From assembly GCA_965261395.1 (NCBI GenBank), contig OZ253462.1, positions 2,752,001 to 2,816,000 of the forward strand: DNA of 64,000 nucleotides, written 5' to 3'. This document shows, one piece after another, positions 13,315-58,002 of the stretch (position 1 is the first letter of the stretch; each line of letters starts with the position of its first letter). Made by a program: the position numbers and the translations under genes. The notes beneath the pieces are model-generated. The model had not been told where the DNA came from and searched no databases. It saw nothing but the letters and a program-made list of their open reading frames with translations. Origin of the DNA: Candidatus Latescibacterota bacterium. GTDB taxonomy: Bacteria; Latescibacterota; UBA2968; UBA8231.

Positions 13315-13740
13315 TCATTCCGACCACGGGTTGAAGACCGGGACGGCGGCCCTGAGAAAGTCGCCCTCGTTGCGGGTACAGACGGTCAGGGAATGCACGT
13401 GCGCGGTGGCGGCTATAAAAAGATCTGGCTGGCTAAAAGTGATTGACTGTTCCCGGCCCCGTGCAACCATTCGGCGCCATTCCAAGATTGCTTCCTCGTC
13501 CACGGGTAGGATACGTCCTGCAAACCAGGGTCTCAGCCTGTGGTCAAGCCACGTTGCGAGTTCTTTGCGGAACTCAGGGTCCGACTGTTTTTCGATGCCG
13601 TACCGAATCTCGGCCAGCGTGACGTTGCTGAGGAACAGGCTGTCCGCTACTTGCACATCCGACCATGCTTTCACCCGACGATCGGGCCGCTTTTTCCGCA
13701 ACTCGGACACGACGTTGGTGTCGAGCAGCCATCCATTCAC
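13315..13740 (-). CDS. vapC: VapC PIN-domain toxin
   Basis: WLLDTNVVSE...LAEIRYG...DLFIAATA...TRNEGDF. Confidence 0.93.
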   Translation of the reverse strand: MNGWLLDTNVVSELRKKRPDRRVKAWSDVQVADSLFLSNVTLAEIRYGIEKQSDPEFRKELATWLDHRLRPWFAGRILPVDEEAILEWRRMVARGREQSITFSQPDLFIAATAHVHSLTVCTRNEGDFLRAAVPVFNPWSE

Positions 13741-14033
13741 AACTCGACCTCTCGAACCGGGCTCCGAATACTATCGTCGCCGAACTCGATGCGGTTCAGA
13801 GGGGATTGTGACAGGAGTTCGTGCAAACTGGCCGATTTTTCCCGCGCCTGGAGATTTTCAAATTCATCTACTGCGACGATGACCACGACGTCCTTACCGT
13901 GAACCGTTACCCGTTGTGGCTGGCCCGCAGCAGCAAGGCGGACCACCTCGCTAAACTTGGCTTTGGCCTCTCCCAACTTCCAGCCGGGAATCGACACCGG
14001 CCCAATCTGTTCGGCTCGACGAGACTTTCCCAC
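13737..14033 (-). CDS. Phd/YefM-family antitoxin
   Basis: WKLGEAKAKFSEVVRLA...PQRVTVHGKDVVVI; 4-nt overlap with vapC; RBS AAGGAGG. Confidence 0.9.
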   Translation of the reverse strand: MGKSRRAEQIGPVSIPGWKLGEAKAKFSEVVRLAAAGQPQRVTVHGKDVVVIVAVDEFENLQAREKSASLHELLSQSPLNRIEFGDDSIRSPVREVEL

Positions 14034-14085: not shown

Positions 14086-15456
14086 GCCTCAATGAAGACG
14101 GGGCGGGGCCTCCCCGGAAATATGAGAAATGGCGCTGTAGGGGCGACCGGCCGGTCGCCCCTACGGACTTCAATGAGGCCGGGGCGTTTCCACCCCGGAA
14201 ATCTTCGGCGACCCGCATCCTCTCCCAGCCGCGCATCTTACTTCAATGAGGCCGGGGCGTTTCCACCCCGGAAATGGAACAAAACCAAGCATACCTTGGC
14301 GAGATTATCGTCACTTCAATGAGGCCGGGGCGTTTCCACCCCGGAAATGTCGAGCTGAACCCCCTCGCGTCGATGGTCATAGGGTTGAACTTCAATGAGG
14401 CCGGGGCGTTTCCACCCCGGAAATCCAACGCTCCAGGATCGTCGCCTACGATTTCGATAAGGACTTCAATGAGGCCGGGGCGTTTCCACCCCGGAAATGC
14501 ATCAAAAGCAGATATATGAGCGCTCGGTAGGCCCGCTTCAATGAGGCCGGGGCGTTTCCACCCCGGAAATCATGCCCGCAGCTATCCTGGGCGTCCCGCT
14601 CCTGAATAAGCTTCAATGAGGCCGGGGCGTTGCCACCCCGGAAATCGCGACCGACGATCTTCTGTCCGAGCTCCTCGAACTTGCTTCAATGAGGCCGGGG
14701 CGTTTCCACCCCGGAAATCCTGCACCGGATGCCTGTCAAGGCCGCCCCTCGATATGTGCTTCAATGAGGCCGGGGCGTTTCCACCCCGGAAATCTCCTCG
14801 TGGTGAGTTCGTTGGGGCGTCATTGCCCTGCTTCAATGAGGCCGGGGCGTTGCCACCCCGGAAATGATCCTCGACGTTGACCTCTTTCTTGCCCAACAGG
14901 CCGCTTCAATGAGGCCGGGGCGTTGCCACCCCGGAAATAAGCGTCGGCAGCCTGCTTTAGCGCATCAGCCGATTGCTGCTTCAATGAGGCCGGGGCGTTG
15001 CCACCCCGGAAATGGTACGCCACAGCTTTTGCGGCTCGCCCGAGCCGTCGCAGCTTCAATGAGGCCGGGGCGTTGCCACCCCGGAAATGAAGTAAGGGAA
15101 GTATTAGGTCTCTCGGCTTCTATCGCTTCAATGAGGCCGGGGCGTTGCCACCCCGGAAATTCCTCGACGATCCGGAGTTTCTCCCAGCCACGCAGCTTGC
15201 TTCAATGAGGCCGGGGCGTTGCCACCCCGGAAATCGATACCCAGCAGACGGCGCTGGACTTGGTTCGTCCGATGCTTCAATGAGGCCGGGGCGTTGCCAC
15301 CCCGGAAATGGACCAAATTCATTCCGTCCAGACCGCAGCCATAAGTGCTTCAATGAGGCCGGGGCGTTGCCACCCCGGAAATGGCCTCATCAAGTCCAGC
15401 GCCGTCTGCTGGGTATCGTCGCTTCAATGAGGCCGGGGCGTTGCCACCCCGGAAAT
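14086..15456 (-). CRISPR. Type I-G CRISPR array, 19 repeats / 18 spacers
   Basis: 36-bp repeat ATTTCCGGGGTGGCAACGCCCCGGCCTCATTGAAGC (minus strand). Spacers are 36-40 bp, the terminal one 45 bp. Degenerate terminal repeat at 14086-14121. Confidence 0.98.
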
Positions 15457-20633: not shown

Positions 20634-22727
20634 TTATGTTAGATCCGAAGATCGGGTTGGCGTCTGCCACCGCTGGAAGACCGAGATAACGTCCTCGGCG
20701 CGGGATGGAATGACCAAGGCCGCCAGCAGCCGCTCCGTGTCAGATACGGCTATTGATGTGTCGAAGTCGGCCAGGTTTACACCAGCGGAACGATATGCCG
20801 CTCGCGCCGCGTCCGCCGCGGTATTCAGGTCACCACGCCGAAGCAGCGCGATGATTCGGGCGAGATGCGTGCAACTCGCGCCCTTCTTGGAGCGAACGCC
20901 GTTTTCGCTGACAACTCGGCTAAACAACCTGTCACTCACCAAGGGGCGGAACAGTCCGTAAAGTGCCAGTGCGCCGTCAACAGTCGGGTTTTCGCGTTTC
21001 CCAAGGTCGCGCTGCAGCGGTCTCGCCGCCTCTCTGTTTTCCTTCCTGCTCCAGTCGAAAAGACAGAGGCGATCCAGCCAGAGGCGCATTCGACCTTCGT
21101 CCACTTCGCCGGACAACCAGGCATGCACGTCTTTCAGCCCCGCGGGCACTGTCGCGCCGAACGGCGGCGATGCACTTGCCTTTGCTTGGGATGCCTCCAC
21201 AACGCGCCGTTCGCCCGTCGCGCATAGGTTCGCTGCAAGCTCGGCATCGCTCCATACACGACGGGCCGGCACGGACTCGGGGAATTCCCAGAGTCCTCCC
21301 GCTTCGCAGACGCCGATGCGATACGCGATGAACTGCGGACACGCAGGCGTTCTTGTTAGGGAAGACATCGCCAGCGCTAGGCGGGCCTCACGATCAGGCG
21401 GGCTTTCCCCAAACAAGCTCGCCGCCCATTCGCCCGGCAACAATCGGAATCGAACGTCGTGGCTGCGAAACGCACTATTTCGGCCTACTCTGACGAGGAC
21501 TTCGAACATTTCGTCAACCAGCGCCCAGGCTTTTTCGACGCGTCCGGTGCCAGGTTCCGAGGCGGCCAAGTCCACAAGCGCCTGCTCGAGAGGGCCTCGC
21601 AGCCCGATGAACCTCCACCGCTGGCCGACCTTTCGATCCGGTGGTAGCGTATCGCGAAGCGCGATAACGGTCTGGGTCGCCCGTGTCGTCGCCCCGTCTT
21701 CGGCTTCCTTCGGCGTTGGTACTACGTTGGCCAACCGCGATTCAAACGTCTGGCTGCTGGTTGTATGAAGAAGCAGAAAGCGCCGAAATTCGGTAATGCC
21801 ACTATCGACGCCGCGCGCCAGGATCGCGACGGAGAACGCCGAGGACGTCGTGGCCCCCCTTCCTCTGACTTCCGACCGACCACGCATAAACAGCAATGAC
21901 AGTTCGGGTTTAGTCATTGGCCGGTTCCATAGCGGTAGCCAGACTTCAGCTTCTACGCCGCCCGCTTCGTCCGCGTTCTTGGGCGCCATTGCCGCCGTGA
22001 CGAACGGGAATGCCCCCTTCGGTTGCCTGCGGCTGCCTAGTTGACGGGATGTCTCTCCTGCAAAGAAGGTCAAACCTTCACAGGCCAACGCCATCGCCCA
22101 TGGCGTCACCTCCCCTTCGCGGAACGGTCCTTTCATTCCGGTGCCGTGGTTGTATATCTTGTTGGCAGCGCCGAACCATGATCCCGCTTGGAAGGGTTTA
22201 AGATACGTGCATGGGCCGCCTCCGATAAAGGCTTTGAGATCTCTGTTGAGGGTTTCCCGGTTCTGTCTTCGGGGCGGATTTCTAATCACTTGCACGGCGG
22301 TTTTCCAGCCCTTTGCGAAGTCACGTTTCCCAGCGTTTCCTCCGGTGCCGAGCAAAGGATTCATCCTGACACGTCCGTCAAGCGCCAAGTGCGCTCCGAA
22401 CAAAGGCAGCAATTTTTCATCCGCTTCCGAGGCGCGCCAACGGGCCGTGCGCATGGATGTCTTCGCCTTCACATCATTCTTCTTGTCCTGATCCCATGGT
22501 TTTTGGTACTCAGTCCAATCGCTCTCTTCTCCAACCTCGCCCACAAAATTGACGACATCTTCCAGGGCGGTTGGTCCACCAACGAGACAGAATCGCCCGT
22601 TACGCCAAGAAGCCCGAACGCCCGGCCACTTCCTTGCCGCGAGCGAGAACAACCCCAACGATGCGAGGTAGGTTCCGAGCGAATCCGCGCTCAGGCCGAT
22701 GAACGTCACGACAGGCAGCCCGTTCAT
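20634..22727 (-). CDS. csx17: Cas8g (Csx17) large subunit
   Basis: LGTYLASLGL, NPLLGTGGNAG, TPW..ALACEG, PF...EVWLPLW, RGVDSGITEF.R. Confidence 0.9.
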   Translation of the reverse strand: MNGLPVVTFIGLSADSLGTYLASLGLFSLAARKWPGVRASWRNGRFCLVGGPTALEDVVNFVGEVGEESDWTEYQKPWDQDKKNDVKAKTSMRTARWRASEADEKLLPLFGAHLALDGRVRMNPLLGTGGNAGKRDFAKGWKTAVQVIRNPPRRQNRETLNRDLKAFIGGGPCTYLKPFQAGSWFGAANKIYNHGTGMKGPFREGEVTPWAMALACEGLTFFAGETSRQLGSRRQPKGAFPFVTAAMAPKNADEAGGVEAEVWLPLWNRPMTKPELSLLFMRGRSEVRGRGATTSSAFSVAILARGVDSGITEFRRFLLLHTTSSQTFESRLANVVPTPKEAEDGATTRATQTVIALRDTLPPDRKVGQRWRFIGLRGPLEQALVDLAASEPGTGRVEKAWALVDEMFEVLVRVGRNSAFRSHDVRFRLLPGEWAASLFGESPPDREARLALAMSSLTRTPACPQFIAYRIGVCEAGGLWEFPESVPARRVWSDAELAANLCATGERRVVEASQAKASASPPFGATVPAGLKDVHAWLSGEVDEGRMRLWLDRLCLFDWSRKENREAARPLQRDLGKRENPTVDGALALYGLFRPLVSDRLFSRVVSENGVRSKKGASCTHLARIIALLRRGDLNTAADAARAAYRSAGVNLADFDTSIAVSDTERLLAALVIPSRAEDVISVFQRWQTPTRSSDLT

Positions 22728-25546
22728 GAGTCTACATCCTTCTTGGTGTTAGGGTCTTTACTGGCCTGTTCGTCGGCGCACCGAACCAAGGCCTCAAGGT
22801 ATGCCAACCCAAAAGGCCCGATATTTCGCGGTTCACTGTCGGGAACGGCACTGCTGATAGCCTGTGGGGCACCGTCTTCCCACCCGCCAAGCAGATCGGT
22901 GACAAGCCCTGTCCAGCCCGGTGCTTCAAAGATGAACTCCGAGCCGTCTTCGGAGAAGTGACCTGACGCTCCATCAACAGCGCACTCGAAATCCAGCGGC
23001 ATATCGTTCCACGGCAACGGATTTGTGGTTTTTTCTATGCCGCATACGTCCTGACTCGCTGGTGTTCGAGCCGTAAGGACCGTACGCACTTTCCCGTGGT
23101 GCGCCGCTGCGAGATAGATCGATAGTGCGGTGAAATCCCTATTCCGTTGCCGATAGTAGCTGTGCCAGAGCGCCAGTGCTGTCGCTGCTTCATGACGGAG
23201 CCCCGGACGAAATGGAACGTTCCACGCACGGAGGATCCCTTGCGTCGCTCGGATTTGTTCGATGTTATTGCGAGAGACCTTTGAATCTGCGTGCCATTCA
23301 TACCTCGTTTCGCCCCGTACACTCTCTTTAGCCCACAACTCAGCCCGGCGAATACGTACGCCGTTCCGCTGTAGGATGGTCTCAGTCGCTTCCGCTGCAT
23401 CGGCTACTTTTGCGATGACTGCGAACTGGTACGGTGCTTTCGCCCACACCTCACCGCTTTGAGGGGGTGGCTTAGGTAACTCCCCCTGCCATTGGGACAG
23501 CGCCTTGCCAATGTCGTGCTCTGCCGAGGCGTGAATGACCGCCGCGCCGATGTTCTTGTTCAGTTCGATTGCCTCGACAATACGCGTCGCCTCGTCCTTG
23601 GCATCCCGAAGATGGTCCCCCAGCTTGACCCAAAACCCGCTCTCGCTGAATCGGTCATCCTCGAATCGCTCGTGCGGTCCACCGGGCGGCGGCACATTAT
23701 GCAGCTTGTCGCTCTTGCACCCTGTCCATCCCATTTCGTCGGAGTATCCACCGTCAGGTCGACGAAGCATCACCAACATGCCGGGGCAAATGTCCAAAGC
23801 ACGGGTGGCCTGCCATGCTTCAGCTTTGTCATCCCAAACCCAAGCTCTTCCCGACGTATCCAGAAACTCTCGAAGTCTGCCGAGGGCTACCGGGCAGCCC
23901 TCGGCGCGACAAAACGCCGGTCCGATCATTTCTGCCGAACGTCGTAGCTGAGCCTCCGAACTCCACTCGCGCCAGAAGACGGTCACATCAGGATTCTCGT
24001 CCTGGCTTCGGACAAACGGACTCACGTCGGTGAAGCCGCCGAAGACGTCCGGCTCCGTCGAGAACAGTCCATGTACGTCGATGGCGCGCGGAAAGGGCTC
24101 GGGTGTCGGAGTAAGTGCCTGCTTCAACTTGTCCGCGTTTTCGTTCTGTGCCCTAAGCGTTTCCAAAGCCTCTCTCGCGGACAACTCTTCGTCGCTTCGG
24201 TACAATATGGCCAACTCACGGAGCAGTTGCGTACCGAGGTTGACCGCTTCGGCCTCATAAGGTCCGATCAACCGCGCCCCTCTTTTCGGTTTCTCCGATC
24301 CCTCCCAAAAATACGCACGCGCATCTCCGTTTAGTCGGCCATCCCGGTTCAGCCTTCCGAGGCGTTGGATGATCGATGGCCAAGGAGCGACCTCGGACCA
24401 CAGCCGCCGGGCCGACACATCCACACCTGCCTCTATGACTTGTGTGGAGACGCATATCAGCCCCGGTACAGTGACCGAGCTATCACTCCCCGCACGTTTG
24501 CGCACCGCTTCAAAGTTAAGGAGCTTGAGTTGGTTCCTTTCGCGGTCCTTGGGGCGAAAGCGAGACGTTAGCAGGACGACTTCATCGTCTCCTTTGTACG
24601 TACTTTTGACCGCAGCGTATATTTTTTGCGCTTCCGCGACGGTGTTGCAGACGACGAGGCTTAGACTCGCTGCACGGTGTTCATCAACCACGGCGTTAGC
24701 TAGTGCTTGCGCGAATGCCGCTTGACGATCGTCGGCGGATGCCTGCTTGCGTTTCATTCTTGTCGGCGGTGCCTTCCATATCTCGCACGGACGGCGAGCT
24801 TGAAGGATCGCGTGTATCTGGTCGTGGGTGCTCAATCGTAGCGGTGTTGGTTTTGGTAACTTTGCGTTTTTGCGATCCCGCGTATCAAGAAACTCTGGGC
24901 GAATCGTTGCGCTCATCCACCATGTCGCGCAAGGCTTCAAGCTCTTGAACCGGTCGCTTCTCATCCAGTCCAGTTGAGCAGATGTCCAGAGTCCCGGCCC
25001 CATCAACTGCACCTCGTCCATGACCCACAGGCAGTCGTTGTTCAATAGCCCGAAGTGCATCGGCCAGCGATAGCGGCTCATTCCGTAGCCTCGGTTGAGG
25101 GCACGGGAAAGAAGCATGTCTTGAGTGCCCACAAGTACGGCATCGCGTTCCGGGTGGATGTCCCAGTCAGCAGCGTCTTCGCCTCCCATGAGTACATGAA
25201 CGCCGACTCTACCCGCGAGGTCGAGATTTTCCAGCCACCCGTTGACGCTCTGTTGCGTCTGTTCGACTAGTGTGCGCATAGGTAGGCAGTAGACGAGGCG
25301 ACGTGGCCAATCGTCTCGCTGTTTGAACACCCGGTTCCAGAGCCATGCTAGCACGACTGCGCCGGTCTTTCCAAACCCCGTTGGGATGTCAATAAGCATG
25401 GATTCGCATTCACTGCTGCCGCTTAGCCACTCGTCTTCGCTACACTTAAAGCGTTCGCCGCATGCGAGACGCACTTGGTATTCGTGGCGTCGGAACCCTG
25501 TAGCCGCCGCAAAAAAACAATCAAATCTTGTTATTGGTCGATTCAC
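22724..25546 (-). CDS. cas3: Cas3 helicase-nuclease with C-terminal HD domain (type I-G)
   Basis: PTGFGKT, RRLVYCLPMRTLVEQ, GTQDMLLSRALNRGY, MDEVQL, STQVIEAGVD, QRLGRLNR; C-terminal H...HDIGK...RHE...HHG. Confidence 0.96.
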   Translation of the reverse strand: MNRPITRFDCFFAAATGFRRHEYQVRLACGERFKCSEDEWLSGSSECESMLIDIPTGFGKTGAVVLAWLWNRVFKQRDDWPRRLVYCLPMRTLVEQTQQSVNGWLENLDLAGRVGVHVLMGGEDAADWDIHPERDAVLVGTQDMLLSRALNRGYGMSRYRWPMHFGLLNNDCLWVMDEVQLMGPGLWTSAQLDWMRSDRFKSLKPCATWWMSATIRPEFLDTRDRKNAKLPKPTPLRLSTHDQIHAILQARRPCEIWKAPPTRMKRKQASADDRQAAFAQALANAVVDEHRAASLSLVVCNTVAEAQKIYAAVKSTYKGDDEVVLLTSRFRPKDRERNQLKLLNFEAVRKRAGSDSSVTVPGLICVSTQVIEAGVDVSARRLWSEVAPWPSIIQRLGRLNRDGRLNGDARAYFWEGSEKPKRGARLIGPYEAEAVNLGTQLLRELAILYRSDEELSAREALETLRAQNENADKLKQALTPTPEPFPRAIDVHGLFSTEPDVFGGFTDVSPFVRSQDENPDVTVFWREWSSEAQLRRSAEMIGPAFCRAEGCPVALGRLREFLDTSGRAWVWDDKAEAWQATRALDICPGMLVMLRRPDGGYSDEMGWTGCKSDKLHNVPPPGGPHERFEDDRFSESGFWVKLGDHLRDAKDEATRIVEAIELNKNIGAAVIHASAEHDIGKALSQWQGELPKPPPQSGEVWAKAPYQFAVIAKVADAAEATETILQRNGVRIRRAELWAKESVRGETRYEWHADSKVSRNNIEQIRATQGILRAWNVPFRPGLRHEAATALALWHSYYRQRNRDFTALSIYLAAAHHGKVRTVLTARTPASQDVCGIEKTTNPLPWNDMPLDFECAVDGASGHFSEDGSEFIFEAPGWTGLVTDLLGGWEDGAPQAISSAVPDSEPRNIGPFGLAYLEALVRCADEQASKDPNTKKDVDS

Positions 25547-25570: not shown

Positions 25571-25795
25571 TCAGTACTCAACAGTAAAATCGTCATTGAC
25601 TGTTTTCCCCGCGAGGACTTCGCCCACGACTTGAGCAATCTCCCGTTTGCTTTTTCTCAGCAACTCAATTTCTTCCGGCGTCAGCATTCGGCAAGCGGGC
25701 GAGGTGCCTATTAGCTGCTTGAGTTTGACCGCCGAAGGGATAGTTCGAGTGTTCTCACTCTCTGAAGGCTGCTCTGTATCGTTGCCCTTAGCCAT
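25571..25795 (-). CDS. Small hypothetical protein upstream of cas3
   Basis: 74-aa ORF whose start overlaps the glyoxalase stop; helical RMLTPEEIELLRKSKREIA. Confidence 0.45.
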   Translation of the reverse strand: MAKGNDTEQPSESENTRTIPSAVKLKQLIGTSPACRMLTPEEIELLRKSKREIAQVVGEVLAGKTVNDDFTVEY

Positions 25796-26303
25796 CTTCT
25801 TTCGTCTCATCGCCCCCTTCCTCCTCCTCACCGCCCTCTCCCTTGCTAGGAGGCCCGCCAATCCGCAGAACATGCCCATCCAAGTCCTCAACTAGCATTT
25901 CCCGCGCCCCCCAAGGCTCATCAACAGGCACCTTCTTTATGTTCGCCCCCGCCGCCGCGTACTCCTCGTGCAGCTTGTCAACATCGCCGACGTTGTAGTA
26001 GATCCACACAGGCCGGGCACCCTGCGAATTCTCGGCGAGAAAGACGTGTACTTCGCCATTGGATAGGGAGGCAAAGGTTTTGTCCTCCTCCTCGGCTGGC
26101 CAGTCCCAATCCTTGTTGAAACCGAGAACCGAAGTGTAGTGCTCGAGGCTCGCCTCGACGCTTGCGACGTTCAGAATCGGCGTCATTGCGGTGAACGCCG
26201 TGGGTGCGGAAGCCTTGTCGTGGTCCTCGTGGGCGACGGCGATTGAGCTAATGCCGATGGCGATTCCTGCAACTACTGCTGCGGCAATTCTGCGACCTCT
26301 CAT
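25788..26303 (-). CDS. VOC/glyoxalase-bleomycin resistance family protein with signal peptide
   Basis: PILNVASVEASLEHY..VLGF, DVDKLHEE, PVDEPWGAREMLVEDLDGHVLRIG. Confidence 0.88.
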   Translation of the reverse strand: MRGRRIAAAVVAGIAIGISSIAVAHEDHDKASAPTAFTAMTPILNVASVEASLEHYTSVLGFNKDWDWPAEEEDKTFASLSNGEVHVFLAENSQGARPVWIYYNVGDVDKLHEEYAAAGANIKKVPVDEPWGAREMLVEDLDGHVLRIGGPPSKGEGGEEEEGGDETKEDG

Positions 26304-26345: not shown

Positions 26346-26388
26346 GTACCGGGTGCGTTGAACCCGGTCAATTTTGACAGCCGCCCCC
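26346..26388 (+). repeat. 43-bp direct repeat, copy 1
   Basis: GTACCGGGTGCGTTGAACCCGGTCAATTTTGACAGCCGCCCCC; 3 mismatches to 27997-28039. Confidence 0.9.
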
Positions 26389-26393
26389 GACGC

Positions 26394-27941
26394 TCACGCC
26401 CGCTCCACCGCAAACGCCGCCACATTGCGTGTATCCTTACTAAATTCCACGCCAATCAGGTATATCGGCTGCCCCAAAGCGCGATACTTATCCGCGTAGC
26501 ACCGCTCCTGCAACTGCGCCATCGCCGCGCCACTGGACGCCAACTCGACCACCTTGAATTCAAATAGATAGATATTGCCGTTGAACAGAACCGCCATGTC
26601 CAATCGTCCGTGGCTACTGCTGTCCTCTACCTTGATGTCCAGCCCTAGCCCGGCGAAATAGGAGTAGAACACGCTGGCGTAATAGCCTTCGTACCGGGCG
26701 ATGTCGTTGTTGGTGTACCACTCATAGGGAATGCTGGCGAAAAAGGCGTGGAATAGCGTCTCCAGCCCGGCGAAGTCGTTGGCCTCCAATAGCCGGTAGA
26801 GTCGGACGCTATTGGCCATCTGCCGCGTGGCATCCTGCACCAAGTAGCGCAGCAGGCTGCGGTTCAGGCTCTGCCGTACCTCGCGGTTGGGATAGCCTAG
26901 CCGATAGACGGGCTCACCGCCGAGGTCTTCCTCGTCTTGGATGGTGAGGTAGCCGGTCTGGAACAGCAGGGCCTCGGTCGCTATGTCGTCCACGTCGAAG
27001 GTGGACAACAGGGCGCTGCCGCCCTCCATGCTGCCCAACTCCAAGGAACTGACGTGGCGCTTGCACAGGGTTTCGATTAAGAACGTCGGCGTGCCGGTCT
27101 CAAACCAATAGGCACCGAACTTGCGGCTGTCGAACAGCAGCAGAATGTCGAAGGGGTTGTACACCTTCTCGTCGCCGAGCCAACTGTAGCCGTTGTACCA
27201 GTCGCGGATCTGATCCCGGTCCAAGCCTGGTAGTTCCGGTGCGAATACCGTGGCGAGGTCTGCCTCGGTGTAGCCACAAATAGCGGAGTAGCGCGGATCA
27301 ATGGTGATGTCCTTGAGGTTGTTGAGTCCCGAAAACAAGCTAACCTTGGAAAACTTGCTCACCCCCGTAATGAAGGCGAAGCGGATGTGTGCATCGCTGG
27401 ATTTGATCATCGCGTACAGGTCGCGCAGAAAGTCGCGGTTAGACCGCGCGATGTCCGGCACCTCCAGCGCATCCAAAATCGGCTTGTCATACTCATCTAC
27501 CAGCACGACAACGCGCTGCCCAGCCTGCCGACTCAGCGCCCCAAGCAGATGGCGAAAGCACGCCGAGGCGCTCTCGTAACGGGTCGTAACCCCGGCCTCT
27601 TCTGCCAAATCTTGTAGTTGCGCCATCGCGTCTTCGTGCAGACCGCCCCGCTCGTAGTAACTGCCGCCGCTGAAGTCCAGCCGCACAACCGGATACCGCC
27701 GTGACCAATCCCAGTGGTCGTGGATGTCCAACCCCTCAAACAGCGGCTCGTTGCCCTCGAACACCTCCTTGAGCGTGTCCAACAACAGGCTTTTGCCAAA
27801 GCGGCGCGGACGCGACAGAAAGTAGTGCTTGCCCTCGTCGAGCAGCCGGCAGATGTAGCCGGTCTTATCGACGTAGTAGCAGTCTTCCTCGCGGATCTCG
27901 CGGAAGGTTTGAATGCCGATGGGCAGTCTGCGTTTGGTCAT
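26394..27941 (-). CDS. AAA-ATPase-like + PD-(D/E)XK nuclease (PDDEXK_9) protein
   Basis: LPIGIQTF, YYVDKT, LSRPRRFGKSL, LVDEYDKP, WYNGY, YWFETGT, PNREV; C-terminal GRLDM...FEFK. Confidence 0.95.
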   Translation of the reverse strand: MTKRRLPIGIQTFREIREEDCYYVDKTGYICRLLDEGKHYFLSRPRRFGKSLLLDTLKEVFEGNEPLFEGLDIHDHWDWSRRYPVVRLDFSGGSYYERGGLHEDAMAQLQDLAEEAGVTTRYESASACFRHLLGALSRQAGQRVVVLVDEYDKPILDALEVPDIARSNRDFLRDLYAMIKSSDAHIRFAFITGVSKFSKVSLFSGLNNLKDITIDPRYSAICGYTEADLATVFAPELPGLDRDQIRDWYNGYSWLGDEKVYNPFDILLLFDSRKFGAYWFETGTPTFLIETLCKRHVSSLELGSMEGGSALLSTFDVDDIATEALLFQTGYLTIQDEEDLGGEPVYRLGYPNREVRQSLNRSLLRYLVQDATRQMANSVRLYRLLEANDFAGLETLFHAFFASIPYEWYTNNDIARYEGYYASVFYSYFAGLGLDIKVEDSSSHGRLDMAVLFNGNIYLFEFKVVELASSGAAMAQLQERCYADKYRALGQPIYLIGVEFSKDTRNVAAFAVERA

Positions 27942-27996
27942 GGCGTACGTTACTCCAGACAGAGGATCCGACTTCTATTCCTTCAGACCGGCCAAA

Positions 27997-28039
27997 GTAC
28001 CGAGTGCGTCGAACCCGGTCAATGTTGACAGCCGCCCCC
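27997..28039 (+). repeat. 43-bp direct repeat, copy 2 (contains TTGACA)
   Basis: GTACCGAGTGCGTCGAACCCGGTCAATGTTGACAGCCGCCCCC. Confidence 0.9.
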
Positions 28040-35146: not shown

Positions 35147-37555
35147 ATGCCGATTCGTTTAGCCCTATTAGCCCTCGCCGTTGGTCTATGGAGTTGTGGA
35201 GACGACGACGATCCTGCACCAACGGCGGCTGCCGTCGATTCGATGATCGCCACCGCGGATTCCATGCTGGTCGCCGCCAATACCATGCTGGCCACCGCCG
35301 ATTCGATGATCACCGCTGCCAATACCATGATCGCCGCAGACGCGGATTCGATGATCGCCGCCGATGCCGATTCCATGCTGGCCGCTGCTAATGACATGCT
35401 GGCTACCGCGAACTCGATGATCGCCGCCGCCAATGCAATGGTCGCCGCGGACGCGGATTCGACGATAGCGGCCGATGCGGCTTCCATGCTAGCCGCCGCC
35501 AATACCATGATCGCCGCTGCTGATTCCATGCTGGCGGCTGCCGGTTCTATCCTGGCTCCAGAAGCGATTTTGCGGCCAACCGGAGAGTTAAAACCCTGGG
35601 ATCTTTCGCCCATTGTCTCGGCTGATGAGGTTCGTGCCATGCCCCTGGGCACGCCCGTATTCCTGCGCACTGAATTTGCCAACGGTGAACTGGCTGACCT
35701 CGAAATGACGTTCGTCCAAGTGGTCGATGATTTTCTGGCACCCATGCCGGTCTATATGGTCGAAGCCTCGGACCCTGTTTTGATCCAACTCGGGGGTATT
35801 GCTCAGGGGATGAGCGGTTCACCCATTTTTACGGAGCAGGGCACCTGGGGTGCTATTGCCTATGGATTTGGTGCCCAAGACAGCCCGCCGTACTACTTTT
35901 TTGCCACGCCCATAGAATGGGTCATCGGCACGCGGGGAATGATGCCAGCGGCCAAACCCACGGCCACGTGGGAAGGAAACAGCATTACTCCCCTAGAGAT
36001 CCCCTTGCTGAGCACGGGACTCAATGGGGTGCGTCCGCTGCCTGAAGGGCGTTCGTCCATCCTGAGTGGAGCCAGCGCCGCTGGTCTAACCCAAGAGCGC
36101 CAAGCCAGCTTTGAGGCCGGCAGGCCACTGACGGTTGGGTTGCTGCTCGGTGAGCTTACGCTGGGTTCGATGGGAACCATATCGTACGTCGATGGCAACC
36201 GGGTCTATGGGTTTGGGCATCCAATGAATAGTAGTGGTCCAGTAGAGCTTCCCATAATCGAAGCAAAGGTGCTCGGCGAAGTTTCCAACTTGTCCGCCCC
36301 GTTCAAGTTTGCAACGCTGAATCCAACGGTGCGCGGCACCCTGACTGAAGACCGCTTGCCTGCGGTTCGCGGCGTGCTCGATCAGGAGCCAGAATTAGTA
36401 CCTATTAAGAGCGCATATACGTTTCCTTCGGGGAGCACGGTCGAACTTGCGCACAGAATGGCCGTCGGTATCAGTCCATATACCTCGCTCGATCTCGTCT
36501 CCAGTGCATTCTTTTATCCCTTGGCCAACCGGGTTGACAACGATCCTGAGCACAGTGTCCGCGTTACGACGGATATTTCTTTTACTGGCTCCGATTCAAC
36601 ACTCACTCGTTCCCGGCTCTACTCCTCACCAGGCGGACGGCTCTTTGCCTCAATTTTTAATGCCTATGGCGACGTGTCATTCGCACTTTCGGAACTTATA
36701 ACGAGGTACGATTACGCCTTATATGTGCGCGAGGCCGAGGTGCATGTCGAAATGATTCCTGAGACTCGTTTTGCCACCTTGACGAAGGTTACTGCCGACA
36801 CGGTCGTCAGTCTTGGGAGTACGCTGAATATTACCACTTTACTGCGCGTGGGACGGACCAAGGACCGGGAAGTCGAGCTAGCCCTCAGCGTGCCGGACAC
36901 GCTTTTCCCTGGCTTTTACCAACTCGAAGTGGGATCCGCCGCACTATTAGGACCCGATGCGCTACTGTTCGGTCCACCACCGTTTGGCCCTCCTAGTGAG
37001 GAATCGCTCGATGATGTTTTTGCCCGACTGAATAAACCCGACGAGAATGTCCTCTTAAAAGCTCGCTTGACGTTTGTCGCACCACCGCCACCACCGCCGC
37101 CACCGCCTGAACCTGTAGATGGTGAGGGCGAACCTGAAGGTGAAGGCGAACCCGAAAGTGAAGGTGAAGGCGAAGACGGTGAAGAAGGCGAGGGTGAAGG
37201 CGAAGACGGTGAAGAAGGCGAGGGTGAAGGCGAAGACGGTGAAGAAGGCGAGGGTGAAGGCGAAGACGGTGAAGAAGGCGAGGGTGAAGGCGAAGACGGT
37301 GAAGAAGGCGAGGGTGAAGGCGAAGACGGTGGAGACGGTGAAGACGGCGAACCCGAAGGCGGCGAAGGCGAACCCGAAGGCGGCTTTGATGAGCTTCCGC
37401 CTCCCGGAGCTTTTCCTCCTGGCCCTCCTCCCCCGCCCCCTGGGCCTATTTCCACGCAGGAAGACGTCGATTTATTGCTCGAAGGTTTTAAGATCCTTCA
37501 TATAGAAGTAGTGGCAGGGGAAATAGTAGAAGAGGAAGTAGTAGAAGAGGAGTAG
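35147..37555 (+). CDS. Lipoprotein with SpoIVB peptidase (S55)-like domain and low-complexity repeats
   Basis: Lipobox LWSC, GGIAQGMSGSP, YGFGHPM; Ala/Met heptad repeats at the N-terminus, Pro/Gly-Glu repeats at the C-terminus. Confidence 0.75.
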   Translation: MPIRLALLALAVGLWSCGDDDDPAPTAAAVDSMIATADSMLVAANTMLATADSMITAANTMIAADADSMIAADADSMLAAANDMLATANSMIAAANAMVAADADSTIAADAASMLAAANTMIAAADSMLAAAGSILAPEAILRPTGELKPWDLSPIVSADEVRAMPLGTPVFLRTEFANGELADLEMTFVQVVDDFLAPMPVYMVEASDPVLIQLGGIAQGMSGSPIFTEQGTWGAIAYGFGAQDSPPYYFFATPIEWVIGTRGMMPAAKPTATWEGNSITPLEIPLLSTGLNGVRPLPEGRSSILSGASAAGLTQERQASFEAGRPLTVGLLLGELTLGSMGTISYVDGNRVYGFGHPMNSSGPVELPIIEAKVLGEVSNLSAPFKFATLNPTVRGTLTEDRLPAVRGVLDQEPELVPIKSAYTFPSGSTVELAHRMAVGISPYTSLDLVSSAFFYPLANRVDNDPEHSVRVTTDISFTGSDSTLTRSRLYSSPGGRLFASIFNAYGDVSFALSELITRYDYALYVREAEVHVEMIPETRFATLTKVTADTVVSLGSTLNITTLLRVGRTKDREVELALSVPDTLFPGFYQLEVGSAALLGPDALLFGPPPFGPPSEESLDDVFARLNKPDENVLLKARLTFVAPPPPPPPPPEPVDGEGEPEGEGEPESEGEGEDGEEGEGEGEDGEEGEGEGEDGEEGEGEGEDGEEGEGEGEDGEEGEGEGEDGGDGEDGEPEGGEGEPEGGFDELPPPGAFPPGPPPPPPGPISTQEDVDLLLEGFKILHIEVVAGEIVEEEVVEEE
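37163..37331 (+). repeat. 30-bp coding tandem repeat, about 5.6 copies
   Basis: GGTGAAGGCGAAGACGGTGAAGAAGGCGAG encoding GEGEDGEEGE. Confidence 0.95.
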
Positions 37556-56313: not shown

Positions 56314-58002
56314 ATGTCCGAAGCCCCCGAATACCGCATCCGCTCCAACGCCCCCTTCGCACTTGACTGCACCCTCGACAAGACGCTGACGGTCGCCGCT
56401 TGGGTCGAAAGTCCCACGGCCCGCGCCGAAGCTATGCAGCCACTCGTCTCGCAATGGTGGCCCCGCGCCGCCTTCGCCGCCTTCGCCGCTTATGACGCTG
56501 GCCACACCGACGGCTTGGTGACCCAAGGCTACTTCGGCGCAGTATTCGATGGCCGCTACGCGTACTTCTGCCCCATCCGCGACCAGCAGGAGCGCACTTC
56601 CGTCCACGGCCGCGTCCTCCGCCTCGACACCCAAGCCGACTTCAAAGACCCACACGCTTGGGCCGCCTACGACGCCAGCTACACCGACGGCCTGCACACC
56701 GCGGGCTTCTACGGCGGGGCCTTTGACGGACGCTACGTGTACTTCAACCCCCGCGACGACGGCACCATCCACCACTCGCGGCTCTTGCGCTACGACACTC
56801 AAGCCGACTTCAAAGACCCAGACGCTTGGGCCGCCCACGACGCTCAGTTACCCCACTCGGGACAGGGCCTCGCCTTTGACGGGCGCTATCTCTACTTCTG
56901 CCCGGGTTACACCCGGTCGTCAATCGGCGGTTTGGACGACGAGCACAGCGGCCGCATCCTCCGCTACGACACCCGCGCCTCCCTAAAGGATCCTGCGAGC
57001 TATGCCGTCTTCAATGCCCAACAGCTCTGTCCGGAGGCAGCCTGTTTCGACGGTGCCGCGTTTGACGGGCACCATATCTACTTCGCGCCGCTCGACAGCG
57101 GCCATGTCCTCCGCTACGCGGTCACCGGGGATTTCGCCGACCCACAAAGCTGGGACCTCTACGACGCTCGTCCCGTGGGGATGCAGATGAACGTCGGTGC
57201 CGTGTTCGACGGGCGGCACATCTATTTTTGCGCTTATGGCAACAGCACGATGTTGCGCTACGACACCGCCGCGCCGTTCGACGACCCAGCCGCTTGGGAC
57301 ACCTACGTTCCCGTAGAGAACAGCGGCTTTGACGGCGGCTTCTTCGACGGACGCTACGTGTACTACGTGCCCTTCACCCGTGCCGCCGCACCCGGAGAGA
57401 GCGTCTTCCACGGCTCCTGGCTGCGCTACGACACGGCCGCGCCGTTCGACGATCCAGCCGCTTGGGACACCCACGACGCCAGCTATACCGACGGCCTGCA
57501 CACGACCGCGTACAACGCTGGAGCGTTCGACGGACGCTATTTCTACACCGCTCCTTGGCGCGGCGACCGCGACGGCAGCCACGCCCACGGCCGCGTACAA
57601 CGCTACGACACCCTCGGGGCAGACGGTGCGTTCTCCCTGCGCTACGACGACGTGGGCCACAACGGCGGGCTGTGCGCGGCCGTGCCCGGCCCCAGCTTCA
57701 TCGTCAATACCACCGGCGGCGCGGTCAGCATTGCCGCTCACCAAACCCTCGCGCCCGGCGTCCATCACCTCGTCGGAGTGTACGACGGCGCGCGCATCCA
57801 GCTCTATATCGACGGCGCGCTCGCAGCCTCGCGCTCAGCTTGTGGCCGTCCGTTGCAACAGACGGCCATCCCCGTGACCATCGGCCATATCGCCAACGGT
57901 AGCGCCCGCTTCCAAGGCACCATCACCGAAGTATATCTATCGCCCGTCGCCCACAGCGCCGCTTGGGTCGCAGCAACCTATCACGCGGGTGCGCCAACCT
58001 AA
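56314..58002 (+). CDS. LamG-like domain interrupted by FDGRY-repeat beta-propeller
   Basis: 7 repeats of (G/A)xFDGR(Y/H)xY...LRYDT; LamG motifs LTVAAWV and HHLVGVYDG..IQLYIDG...FQGTI.EV. Confidence 0.7.
   Translation: MSEAPEYRIRSNAPFALDCTLDKTLTVAAWVESPTARAEAMQPLVSQWWPRAAFAAFAAYDAGHTDGLVTQGYFGAVFDGRYAYFCPIRDQQERTSVHGRVLRLDTQADFKDPHAWAAYDASYTDGLHTAGFYGGAFDGRYVYFNPRDDGTIHHSRLLRYDTQADFKDPDAWAAHDAQLPHSGQGLAFDGRYLYFCPGYTRSSIGGLDDEHSGRILRYDTRASLKDPASYAVFNAQQLCPEAACFDGAAFDGHHIYFAPLDSGHVLRYAVTGDFADPQSWDLYDARPVGMQMNVGAVFDGRHIYFCAYGNSTMLRYDTAAPFDDPAAWDTYVPVENSGFDGGFFDGRYVYYVPFTRAAAPGESVFHGSWLRYDTAAPFDDPAAWDTHDASYTDGLHTTAYNAGAFDGRYFYTAPWRGDRDGSHAHGRVQRYDTLGADGAFSLRYDDVGHNGGLCAAVPGPSFIVNTTGGAVSIAAHQTLAPGVHHLVGVYDGARIQLYIDGALAASRSACGRPLQQTAIPVTIGHIANGSARFQGTITEVYLSPVAHSAAWVAATYHAGAPT

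What the first reader, a model, noticed from the sequence alone, without database searches (positions are those of the whole stretch)
23212..23432. ACT-like domain inserted inside the HD nuclease of a type I-G Cas3
Seen: between HD motifs HDIGK...WAKAP and FRPGLRHE...HHG there is a segment of about 75 aa: YQFAVIAKVADAAEATETILQRNGVRIRRAELWAKESVRGETRYEWHADSKVSRNNIEQIRATQGILRAWNV. Known: type I-G Cas3 has a C-terminal HD domain, and as I recall this linker is usually short. Inference: the pattern fits beta-alpha-beta-beta-alpha-beta ('ILQRNGVRI', 'IEQIRATQGILRA'), as in ACT ligand-binding domains. This would suggest a Cas3 nuclease gated by a small molecule or partner protein, which I do not know to be described.
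Basis: partly seen in the sequence, partly recalled or inferred. Interest (0 to 1): 0.78.

Follow-up and report, generated by a model that had tools for sequence, protein, structure and literature searches.

The report
Metabolic-enzyme domain grafted into CRISPR nuclease
A rare but widely spread lineage of CRISPR Cas3 DNA-cutting enzymes carries an extra 72-residue domain, predicted to fold like and likely derived from the amino-acid-sensing ACT domain of metabolic enzymes, but the usual sensing residues are gone and it likely helps grip DNA rather than act as a metabolite switch.

Summary
The gene is an intact type I-G Cas3 (TIGR02621, 618.7 bits) in a complete I-G locus. It carries a 72-residue segment (Y706-V777, window 23216-23431) between invariant K703 and the HD metal ligand H785, where most Cas3g have a ~15-residue loop. 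AlphaFold2 folds it as beta-alpha-beta-beta-alpha-beta (pLDDT 89). The nine best structural matches are ACT domains (best: phosphoglycerate dehydrogenase, Z 11.4). Its profile matches SerA ACT (hhalign 34; shuffles at most 15; Cas2 8; S6 17). The fold call is therefore right. The canonical ligand site is missing: D/N-x-P-G in 1 of 142 inserts and the serine-binding Asn motif in 0 of 142, against 30 of 30 for each in SerA. The insert marks one Cas3g clade (one gain, one loss), spread over seven or more phyla and found in 2 of 98 unbiased loci. It was found nowhere outside Cas3g. It is basic, like the short loop it replaced. Best reading: a repurposed ACT-derived domain that likely contacts single-stranded DNA at the nuclease mouth. 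Ligand gating is not excluded (about 0.12). I found no description in the papers searched, and this scan had not noted it before.

The parts
23216..23431 (-). ACT-like insert, Cas3 residues Y706-V777 (72 aa); predicted strands/helices 706-712, 717-727, 732-741, 747-753, 759-766, 771-777
22724..25546 (-). cas3g, 940 aa: N-terminal SF2 helicase, C-terminal HD nuclease
   Evidence: TIGR02621 618.7 bits, cut-off 400; PF00270 and PF22590
23432..23641 (-). HD domain, N-terminal half: H645, H677-D678, K681 and invariant W-A-K703 just before the insert
22727..23215 (-). HD domain, C-terminal half: R784-H785-E786, H816-H817, D925
   Evidence: invariant columns; HD fold matches
20634..22727 (-). cas8g (Csx17), 697 aa
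   Evidence: TIGR04113 344.7 bits
19525..20670 (-). cas7g (Csb1)
   Evidence: TIGR02570 and PF09617
17961..19583 (-). csb2 (Cas5/Cas6)
   Evidence: TIGR02165 109.9 bits
15965..17677 (-). cas4g/cas1g fusion
   Evidence: NF049935 777.8 bits
15666..15959 (-). cas2
   Evidence: PF09827 and TIGR01573
14086..15456 (.). CRISPR array: 18 repeats of 36 nt plus a degenerate terminal repeat; the 17 spacers between the 18 repeats are 36-40 nt

Best explanation
The segment is an inserted domain, predicted to have an ACT fold and likely captured once from a SerA-type ACT domain, that lacks the canonical amino-acid site and likely works as a positively charged lid or guide holding single-stranded DNA at the mouth of the Cas3 HD nuclease. 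Shown: it sits between invariant K703 and the metal-ligand His785, the catalytic residues are intact, and the ligand motif is absent. It is net basic, it replaced a short basic loop, and it has been kept across one deep Cas3g clade with one known loss. Inferred: the folded basic domain extends the DNA-contact role assumed for the ancestral loop. It would bind the displaced strand or R-loop fed by the helicase and so tune substrate capture, processivity or the resting state of Cascade-bound Cas3. It would be a modifier, not essential for cutting.
For: Fold: pLDDT 89.3 with beta-alpha-beta-beta-alpha-beta. The top 9 of 48,161 chains are ACT domains: 1ygy Z 11.4, rmsd 2.2 over 76 residues; next Z 9.7; S6 8.4. 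In the HD+insert model (pLDDT 92.8, pTM 0.90) the insert matches ACT domains over model residues ~82-156 and the rest matches Cas3 HD (8wth Z 10.8, 4qqw Z 9.2). Origin: hhalign of 142 inserts vs 30 SerA ACT gives probability 91.6, score 34.0 over 63 columns. Controls: 100 column shuffles 9.2+-1.9 (max 15.2), reversed profile 13.7, S6 17.1, Cas2 7.7, RelA ACT 20.2, AHAS ACT 7.7; true ACT-ACT pairs score 27-36. The SerA-ACT HMM ranks the Cas3 insert 5th of 44,844 genome ORFs, among real ACT proteins, though at E about 1. Ligand site lost: D/N-x-P-G in 1 of 142 and [IVL]-N-[IV] in 0 of 142, against D-x-P-G and [IV]-N-I in 30 of 30 SerA. No insert has both D/N at the D463-equivalent and N at the N481-equivalent column; these are serine ligands per PMC8238522. 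Charge: the AK-to-RHE loop in 114 insert-less Cas3g is median 15 aa with net +2.2 (background -0.2). In 34 insert-bearing loci it is +3.5, positive in 33 of 34; SerA ACT is -2.1. Eight insert columns are at least half K/R, against 2 in SerA ACT. Precedent: the RelA ACT/RRM domain contacts 23S rRNA (PMC7058999). Retention: one clade with one nested loss.
Against: No DNA binding was measured or modelled, and no coordinates were available to place the basic residues relative to the active site. The insert is the least conserved part of Cas3 (27% identity in distant members vs 46-60% for HD and 59% for helicase), and its net charge lies within one standard deviation of same-length background windows (-0.4+-4.5). 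The 142-sequence set is dominated by close relatives. The D463-equivalent column is still D/E in 53%. No Pfam ACT model hits any of 31 inserts, and the insert profile does not itself retrieve ACT proteins from the genome or from 1.84 billion representatives. SerA was compared with only two other ACT families, all from one phylum. The same loop takes unrelated insertions in other Cas3g (L066, L081, L296, L339), and L029 lacks the insert.
Confidence: 0.5

Rival explanations
1. The ACT-like domain is a protein-contact module. It docks on Cas8g, Csb2 or the Cas3 helicase to hold Cascade-bound Cas3 inactive until the R-loop forms, or it covers a surface that anti-CRISPR proteins would target.
For: Type I-G Cas3 is a stable Cascade subunit bound via Cas8g and is needed for target binding (PMC9638904 passages). 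A review describes it as autoinhibited in the complex (PMC11127173 passages). The insert clade has its own Cas8g/Cas7/Csb2 lineage. Non-basic residues are conserved too: E722, W751, W775.
Against: L029 keeps clade-type Cascade genes without the insert. The charge pattern matches the ancestral basic loop. No partner was modelled.
Confidence: 0.2
2. A near-neutral passenger. An ACT fragment landed in an insertion-tolerant surface loop, keeps its fold so as not to disturb the HD domain, and adds at most some stability.
For: It is the fastest-changing part of the protein. One clean loss is seen (L029). Other, unrelated inserts of 45-50 aa occur in the same loop.
Against: It is kept in 34 of 35 clade members in the tree, over paths of about 1 change per site and seven named phyla. 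Its length is held at spacing 102-116, its core residues are conserved, and its charge is shifted from acidic (SerA ACT) to basic.
Confidence: 0.15
3. One reading: the domain binds a small molecule (an amino acid, a nucleotide or a metal) at a remodelled site and allosterically gates the HD nuclease, tying CRISPR interference to metabolic state.
For: The fold and the closest sequence profile are those of a serine-sensing ACT domain. The domain sits 8 residues before metal ligand H785, so a movement could reach the active site (sequence). The D463-equivalent position is D in 61 of 142, E in 14 and N in 17. ACT-like domains bind varied ligands (established knowledge).
Against: D/N-x-P-G occurs in 1 of 142 and the Asn motif in 0 of 142. 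The beta1-alpha1 loop varies in length and sequence, and no conserved polar pocket is apparent from the columns. No enzyme or sensor gene is specific to insert-bearing loci (33 vs 36 loci).
Confidence: 0.12
4. On origin only: the domain is a generic ferredoxin-like fold from another source (RRM-like, S6-like, Cas2-like), and the likeness to ACT is convergent.
For: The fold is common: 336 chains reach Z 5 or more and S6 reaches 8.4. Foldseek gives no match at E <= 0.001, and no Pfam ACT model hits.
Against: Two independent measures, structure and sequence profile, both put the PGDH ACT first. The profile score equals true ACT-ACT pairs and is far above S6 and Cas2.
Confidence: 0.12

Closest known systems
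Type I-G Cas3 (Cas3g, TIGR02621; Thioalkalivibrio sulfidiphilus system, PMC9638904 and 10.1101/2023.04.24.538059)
   Same: Helicase-then-HD order, intact HD residues, and the operon cas3-cas8g-cas7g-csb2-cas4/1-cas2-array.
   Different: A 72-residue folded domain replaces the short loop before the RHE histidine. The family profile has about 6 positions there. I could not read the T. sulfidiphilus sequence itself.
C-terminal ACT domain of D-3-phosphoglycerate dehydrogenase (SerA; M. tuberculosis PDB 1ygy)
   Same: Predicted fold (Z 11.4, rmsd 2.2 over 76 residues, 17% identity) and profile similarity from helix 1 to strand 4.
   Different: It lacks D-x-P-G and the Asn ligand (D463/N481), is basic rather than acidic, and is inserted inside a nuclease loop rather than appended at the C-terminus of an oligomeric enzyme.
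RelA/Rel ACT (RRM) domain
   Same: ACT fold (6lxg Z 9.4; hhalign 20) in a protein with an HD-family domain; precedent for nucleic-acid contact (PMC7058999 passages).
   Different: That domain is C-terminal, binds rRNA and in some species branched-chain amino acids through a kept Asn; its sequence match to the insert is weaker than SerA's.
Type I-F Cas2-Cas3 fusion (recalled)
   Same: A ferredoxin-like domain joined to Cas3.
   Different: Cas2 is N-terminal there and serves adaptation. The insert shows no profile similarity to Cas2 (score 7.7, shuffle level), and the locus has its own cas2.

Membership tests
Type I-G Cas3 (Cas3g) | Match to TIGR02621 above its cut-off | tested here: met
   618.7 bits vs 400
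Type I-G Cas3 (Cas3g) | SF2 helicase N-terminal, HD nuclease C-terminal | tested here: met
   PF00270 at 48-216, PF22590 at 295-403, TIGR01596 at 644-697; HD fold matches
Type I-G Cas3 (Cas3g) | HD motif H..HD..K..H..HH..D | tested here: met
   H645, H677, D678, K681, H785, H816, H817 and D925 invariant in 66 and in 111 aligned sequences; motif as in PMC12700095
Type I-G Cas3 (Cas3g) | Linked cas8g, cas7g, csb2, cas4/1, cas2 and array | tested here: met
Type I-G Cas3 (Cas3g) | Target-dependent DNA degradation | not testable with these tools
   needs an interference or cleavage assay
ACT domain (canonical, ligand-binding) | beta-alpha-beta-beta-alpha-beta fold of 70-80 residues, closest to ACT domains | tested here: met
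   predicted model, pLDDT 89.3; top 9 matches ACT, best Z 11.4, rmsd 2.2, 76 aligned
ACT domain (canonical, ligand-binding) | Sequence-profile homology to an ACT family | tested here: met
   hhalign vs SerA ACT: probability 91.6, score 34; shuffles at most 15.2; pairwise test, not database-wide
ACT domain (canonical, ligand-binding) | Hit to a curated Pfam ACT model | tested here: not met
   0 of 31 inserts at E up to 1
ACT domain (canonical, ligand-binding) | beta1-alpha1 ligand loop D/N-x-P-G and the alpha1-beta2 Asn (Mtb D463, N481) | tested here: not met
   1 of 142 and 0 of 142, against 30 of 30 each in SerA; no insert has both ligand residues. Filed as ACT-like or ACT-derived, not as a canonical ACT
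ACT domain (canonical, ligand-binding) | Ligand bound at an ACT-ACT dimer interface, with allosteric control of the host enzyme | not testable with these tools
   needs SEC-MALS, ITC and activity assays
Cas2 | Sequence-profile similarity to Cas2 | tested here: not met
   hhalign 7.7 vs 25 Cas2 sequences, below the shuffle mean; no PF09827 hit
Ribosomal protein S6-like | Fold and profile closer to S6 than to ACT | tested here: not met
   S6 Z 8.4 (rmsd 2.2, 75 aligned) vs ACT 11.4; hhalign 17.1 over 23 columns vs 34.0 over 63

The most novel reading that the evidence does not exclude
A Cas3 whose nuclease is gated by a captured ACT domain with a remodelled ligand pocket, so that a metabolite or infection signal turns type I-G interference on or off. 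This would be, to my knowledge, the first small-molecule-regulated Cas3, and a natural site for building ligand-switchable Cas3 editors.
Probability: 0.12. Interest if true: 0.88.

Novelty: new variant of a known kind. Interest (0 to 1): 0.52.

Why it matters
It is an apparently undescribed Cas3 architecture: a domain likely taken from amino-acid metabolism, set beside the catalytic metal site of a CRISPR nuclease and kept across many phyla. No type I-G Cas3 structure turned up in the PDB sequence search, and Cas3 was not resolved in the I-G cryo-EM map, so how it is held inactive and then activated is open. This clade, with a natural deletion control (L029), makes the role of the K703-H785 loop directly testable. 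It also shows that the loop tolerates a whole folded domain, which matters for engineering type I-G editors. If the domain proved to sense a ligand, it would link CRISPR interference to metabolism.

Tried and rejected
Homodimer prediction of HD+insert (2 copies): no answer, score 0.00 against a mark of 0.42, controls not folded; it carries no weight either way. Pfam and NCBIfam scans of the insert: no family. ESM Atlas: nothing above 0.79, no usable lead. PDB sequence search with the insert profile: nothing under E 0.26; a DedD (SPOR) hit at E 2 was not pursued. Foldseek: ACT domains and S6 on top, none at E <= 0.001. Cas2 is not among the 50 listed structural matches, which does not exclude it; it was rejected on the profile test. 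Free-standing or non-Cas3 copies: of 18 hits among 1.84 billion representatives, 17 are Cas3g or fragments of it and 1 is a low-complexity repeat protein; no hit in plasmids or phages with the single insert sequence. The insert profile against the genome's own ORFs retrieved only Cas3. Accessory gene specific to insert loci: none among the 45 largest ORF clusters from 33 insert and 36 insert-less loci; the clade-specific clusters looked like shadow frames of the cas genes. Recent foreign origin: insert GC 54.8% vs cas3 57.4% vs genome 59.3%, uninformative. The first tree run timed out. The phylum sample repeated the first 250 genomes and was merged with it. Two papers on Cas3 activation (PMC9357151, PMC10857747) are not held, so I could not check whether the regulatory loops of type I-A or I-C Cas3 map to this loop. 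Earlier scan notes: none by sequence and one unrelated by words.
Full report
Observation. The ORF at 22724..25546 (- strand, 940 aa) is a type I-G Cas3 (TIGR02621, 618.7 bits against a cut-off of 400). It is followed by cas8g, cas7g, csb2, cas4/1, cas2 and an array of 18 repeats plus a degenerate one. It lies between the invariant W-A-K703 and F779-R-P-G-L-R-H785-E. The family profile stops at model position 737 and resumes at 744 across it, so it is an insertion. Residue numbers here follow; my scripts (column lists) and 95 printed them one lower.

How common. All 120 listed hits (of 528) of a search with the HD region carry the insert, with spacing 103-114, but that ranking favours it. Among 80 GTDB loci nearest to the query, 32 had HDxGK-to-RHE spacing 102-116, 35 had 37-64, 1 had 88 and 12 could not be scored in one frame. 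Four of the 12 carry the insert. For a less biased count I scanned phylum samples with TIGR02621 (251, 401 and 251 genomes; one search repeated part of 89) and fetched 101 loci. Three of these were the centre loci chosen for having the insert. The insert profile hit 2 of the other 98; 80 HD motif sets outside the centres could be measured, and some loci end before the HD domain. In the window's own class, 2 of 7 genomes with Cas3g over the cut-off have it, the window's included. It is a minority form, a few per cent of Cas3g.

History. Trees were built on sequence upstream of the insert. In a 60-row tree (21 near-duplicate or surplus loci left out), insert carriers form one side of a branch with support 100, and one insert-less row (L029) is nested inside; 2 changes are needed, against 19.6 for shuffled labels. 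In a 51-row tree with diverse Cas3g, that clade (support 98) sits deep among insert-less proteins (quick search, midpoint root). One gain and one loss is the simplest reading. Record titles of carriers span Acidobacteriota, Actinomycetota, Chloroflexota, Planctomycetota, Pseudomonadota, Rhodothermota and Verrucomicrobiota. A profile of 31 inserts run over 1.84 billion representatives gave 18 hits: 17 Cas3g or fragments of it and 1 repeat protein. No free-standing copy was found.

Fold. AlphaFold2 with 120 sequences gives beta-alpha-beta-beta-alpha-beta at pLDDT 89.3. Of 48,161 solved chains, the nine best are ACT domains. M. tuberculosis phosphoglycerate dehydrogenase leads (1ygy, Z 11.4, rmsd 2.2, 76 aligned), then AHAS regulatory subunits, Rel, TyrR and homoserine dehydrogenase (Z 9.7-8.5); S6 reaches 8.4. 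Foldseek ranks the same families first, none at E <= 0.001. HD plus insert folds at pLDDT 92.8, pTM 0.90; residues ~82-156 of that model match ACT domains and the rest matches Cas3 HD domains (8wth Z 10.8, 4qqw Z 9.2, 7tr8 Z 8.6). The insert is therefore a separate domain in an intact HD fold. The high pTM suggests a fixed orientation (inference; no coordinates were available).

Origin. A profile of 142 inserts aligns with 30 SerA ACT domains at probability 91.6, score 34.0, over 63 columns. Controls: 100 column shuffles 9.2+-1.9 (max 15.2), reversed profile 13.7, S6 17.1, Cas2 7.7, RelA ACT 20.2, AHAS ACT 7.7; true ACT-ACT pairs score 27-36. The SerA-ACT HMM ranks the Cas3 insert fifth of 44,844 six-frame ORFs of the genome, among real ACT proteins, at E about 1. 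Against this, no Pfam ACT model hits any of 31 inserts, the more distant subgroup aligns over only 27 columns (probability 62), and only three ACT families from one phylum were compared. ACT-derived is likely; SerA as the donor is the best lead, not proven.

Ligand site. In M. tuberculosis PGDH, serine is held by Y461, D463 and N481 (PMC8238522, one passage seen). The D-x-P-G and [IV]-N-I motifs are each in 30 of 30 SerA domains. The matching patterns are in 1 and 0 of 142 inserts. In register, the window has K713 for D463 and R731 for N481, and no insert has both ligand residues. The D463 column is still D, E or N in 92 of 142, which may be a helix cap or a remnant. The sequence match to SerA begins at the end of that loop. 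No accessory gene tracks with the insert in 33 vs 36 loci. The canonical gating model is thus not supported.

Mechanism. All HD residues are invariant in carriers, so the nuclease looks intact. In 114 insert-less Cas3g the same loop is about 15 residues and basic (net +2.2, 83% positive; background -0.2). In 34 carriers the region is +3.5 and positive in 33; SerA ACT is -2.1 and AHAS ACT -3.2. Eight insert columns are at least half K/R, against two in SerA ACT. An ACT fold that contacts nucleic acid has a precedent in RelA (PMC7058999, passages seen). Type I-G Cas3 is a stable Cascade subunit needed for target binding (PMC9638904, passages and a supplement search) and is described as autoinhibited there (PMC11127173, passages). 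I therefore favour a repurposed, basic DNA-contact lid at the active-site mouth (0.5). Rivals are protein docking or autoinhibition (0.2), a near-neutral passenger (0.15) and non-canonical ligand gating (0.12). Against the favoured reading: nothing was measured, the insert is the most variable region (27% identity in distant members vs 46-60% for HD), its net charge is within one standard deviation of background windows, L029 does without it, and other Cas3g carry unrelated inserts in the same loop.

Novelty. Searches for 'Cas3' with 'ACT domain' (3 papers, unrelated by title and abstract), for type I-G Cas3 with HD domain and insertion, for I-G structure, for Cas3 domain insertion (0 papers) and for 'ACT domain' with type I-G or I-U (no 'ACT domain' occurrence in the 8 listed of 9) found no description. 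Subscription journals and bioRxiv supplements were not searchable, and two relevant Mol Cell papers were not held. The I-G engineering preprint (passages seen) describes only helicase and HD domains. This scan's earlier notes held nothing similar. The Cas2-Cas3 fusion of type I-F is recalled, not taken from a call.

Verdict. A real, apparently undescribed variant of type I-G Cas3 with an ACT-derived domain inside the HD nuclease. New variant of a known kind; interest 0.52.

Noticed in passing
L029:7959-10784: Cas3g nested in the insert clade that lacks the insert (spacing 37) but keeps the HD motifs and cas8g, cas7 and csb2: a natural deletion control.
   Followed up: yes
L296, L339, L066, L081 (HD domain): Other Cas3g with unrelated extra sequence of about 45-50 aa between HDxGK and the RHE/THE histidine. 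L296 and L066 branch next to the insert clade.
   Followed up: partly
window 15234-15272 and 15382-15419: Two spacers at the cas2 end of the array overlap as reverse complements of the same target, which would fit primed acquisition. Spacers 14202-14238 and 15160-15197 resemble each other.
   Followed up: no
window 14086-15456: The array has two repeat variants (GCGTTTCC and GCGTTGCC), and the first base changes from A to G along the array.
   Followed up: no
window 22727-23100: The insert clade has its own HD C-terminal half (HHG to RxAD 105-116 residues vs 88-107) with a conserved predicted hairpin, kept in L029.
   Followed up: partly
L014: An insert-clade cas3g broken after about residue 571, with a second, insert-less cas3g HD motif about 4 kb downstream on the same strand.
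   Followed up: no
window 26346-28039: An AAA-ATPase/PD-(D/E)XK gene (26394-27941) flanked by 43-nt direct repeats, upstream of cas3; a glyoxalase-family gene (25788-26303) and a 106-aa ORF with no family (25571-25891) lie between.
   Followed up: no
window 13737-14033: A Phd/YefM-type antitoxin gene directly beyond the array.
   Followed up: no
window 5970-6269 and 8389-8688: Exact 300-nt duplication.
   Followed up: no
window 35213-35566, 37094-37395, 56527-57547: Coding-type tandem repeats: a 21-nt unit, a Gly/Glu-rich run and a repeat with spacings of roughly 144-340 nt.
   Followed up: no
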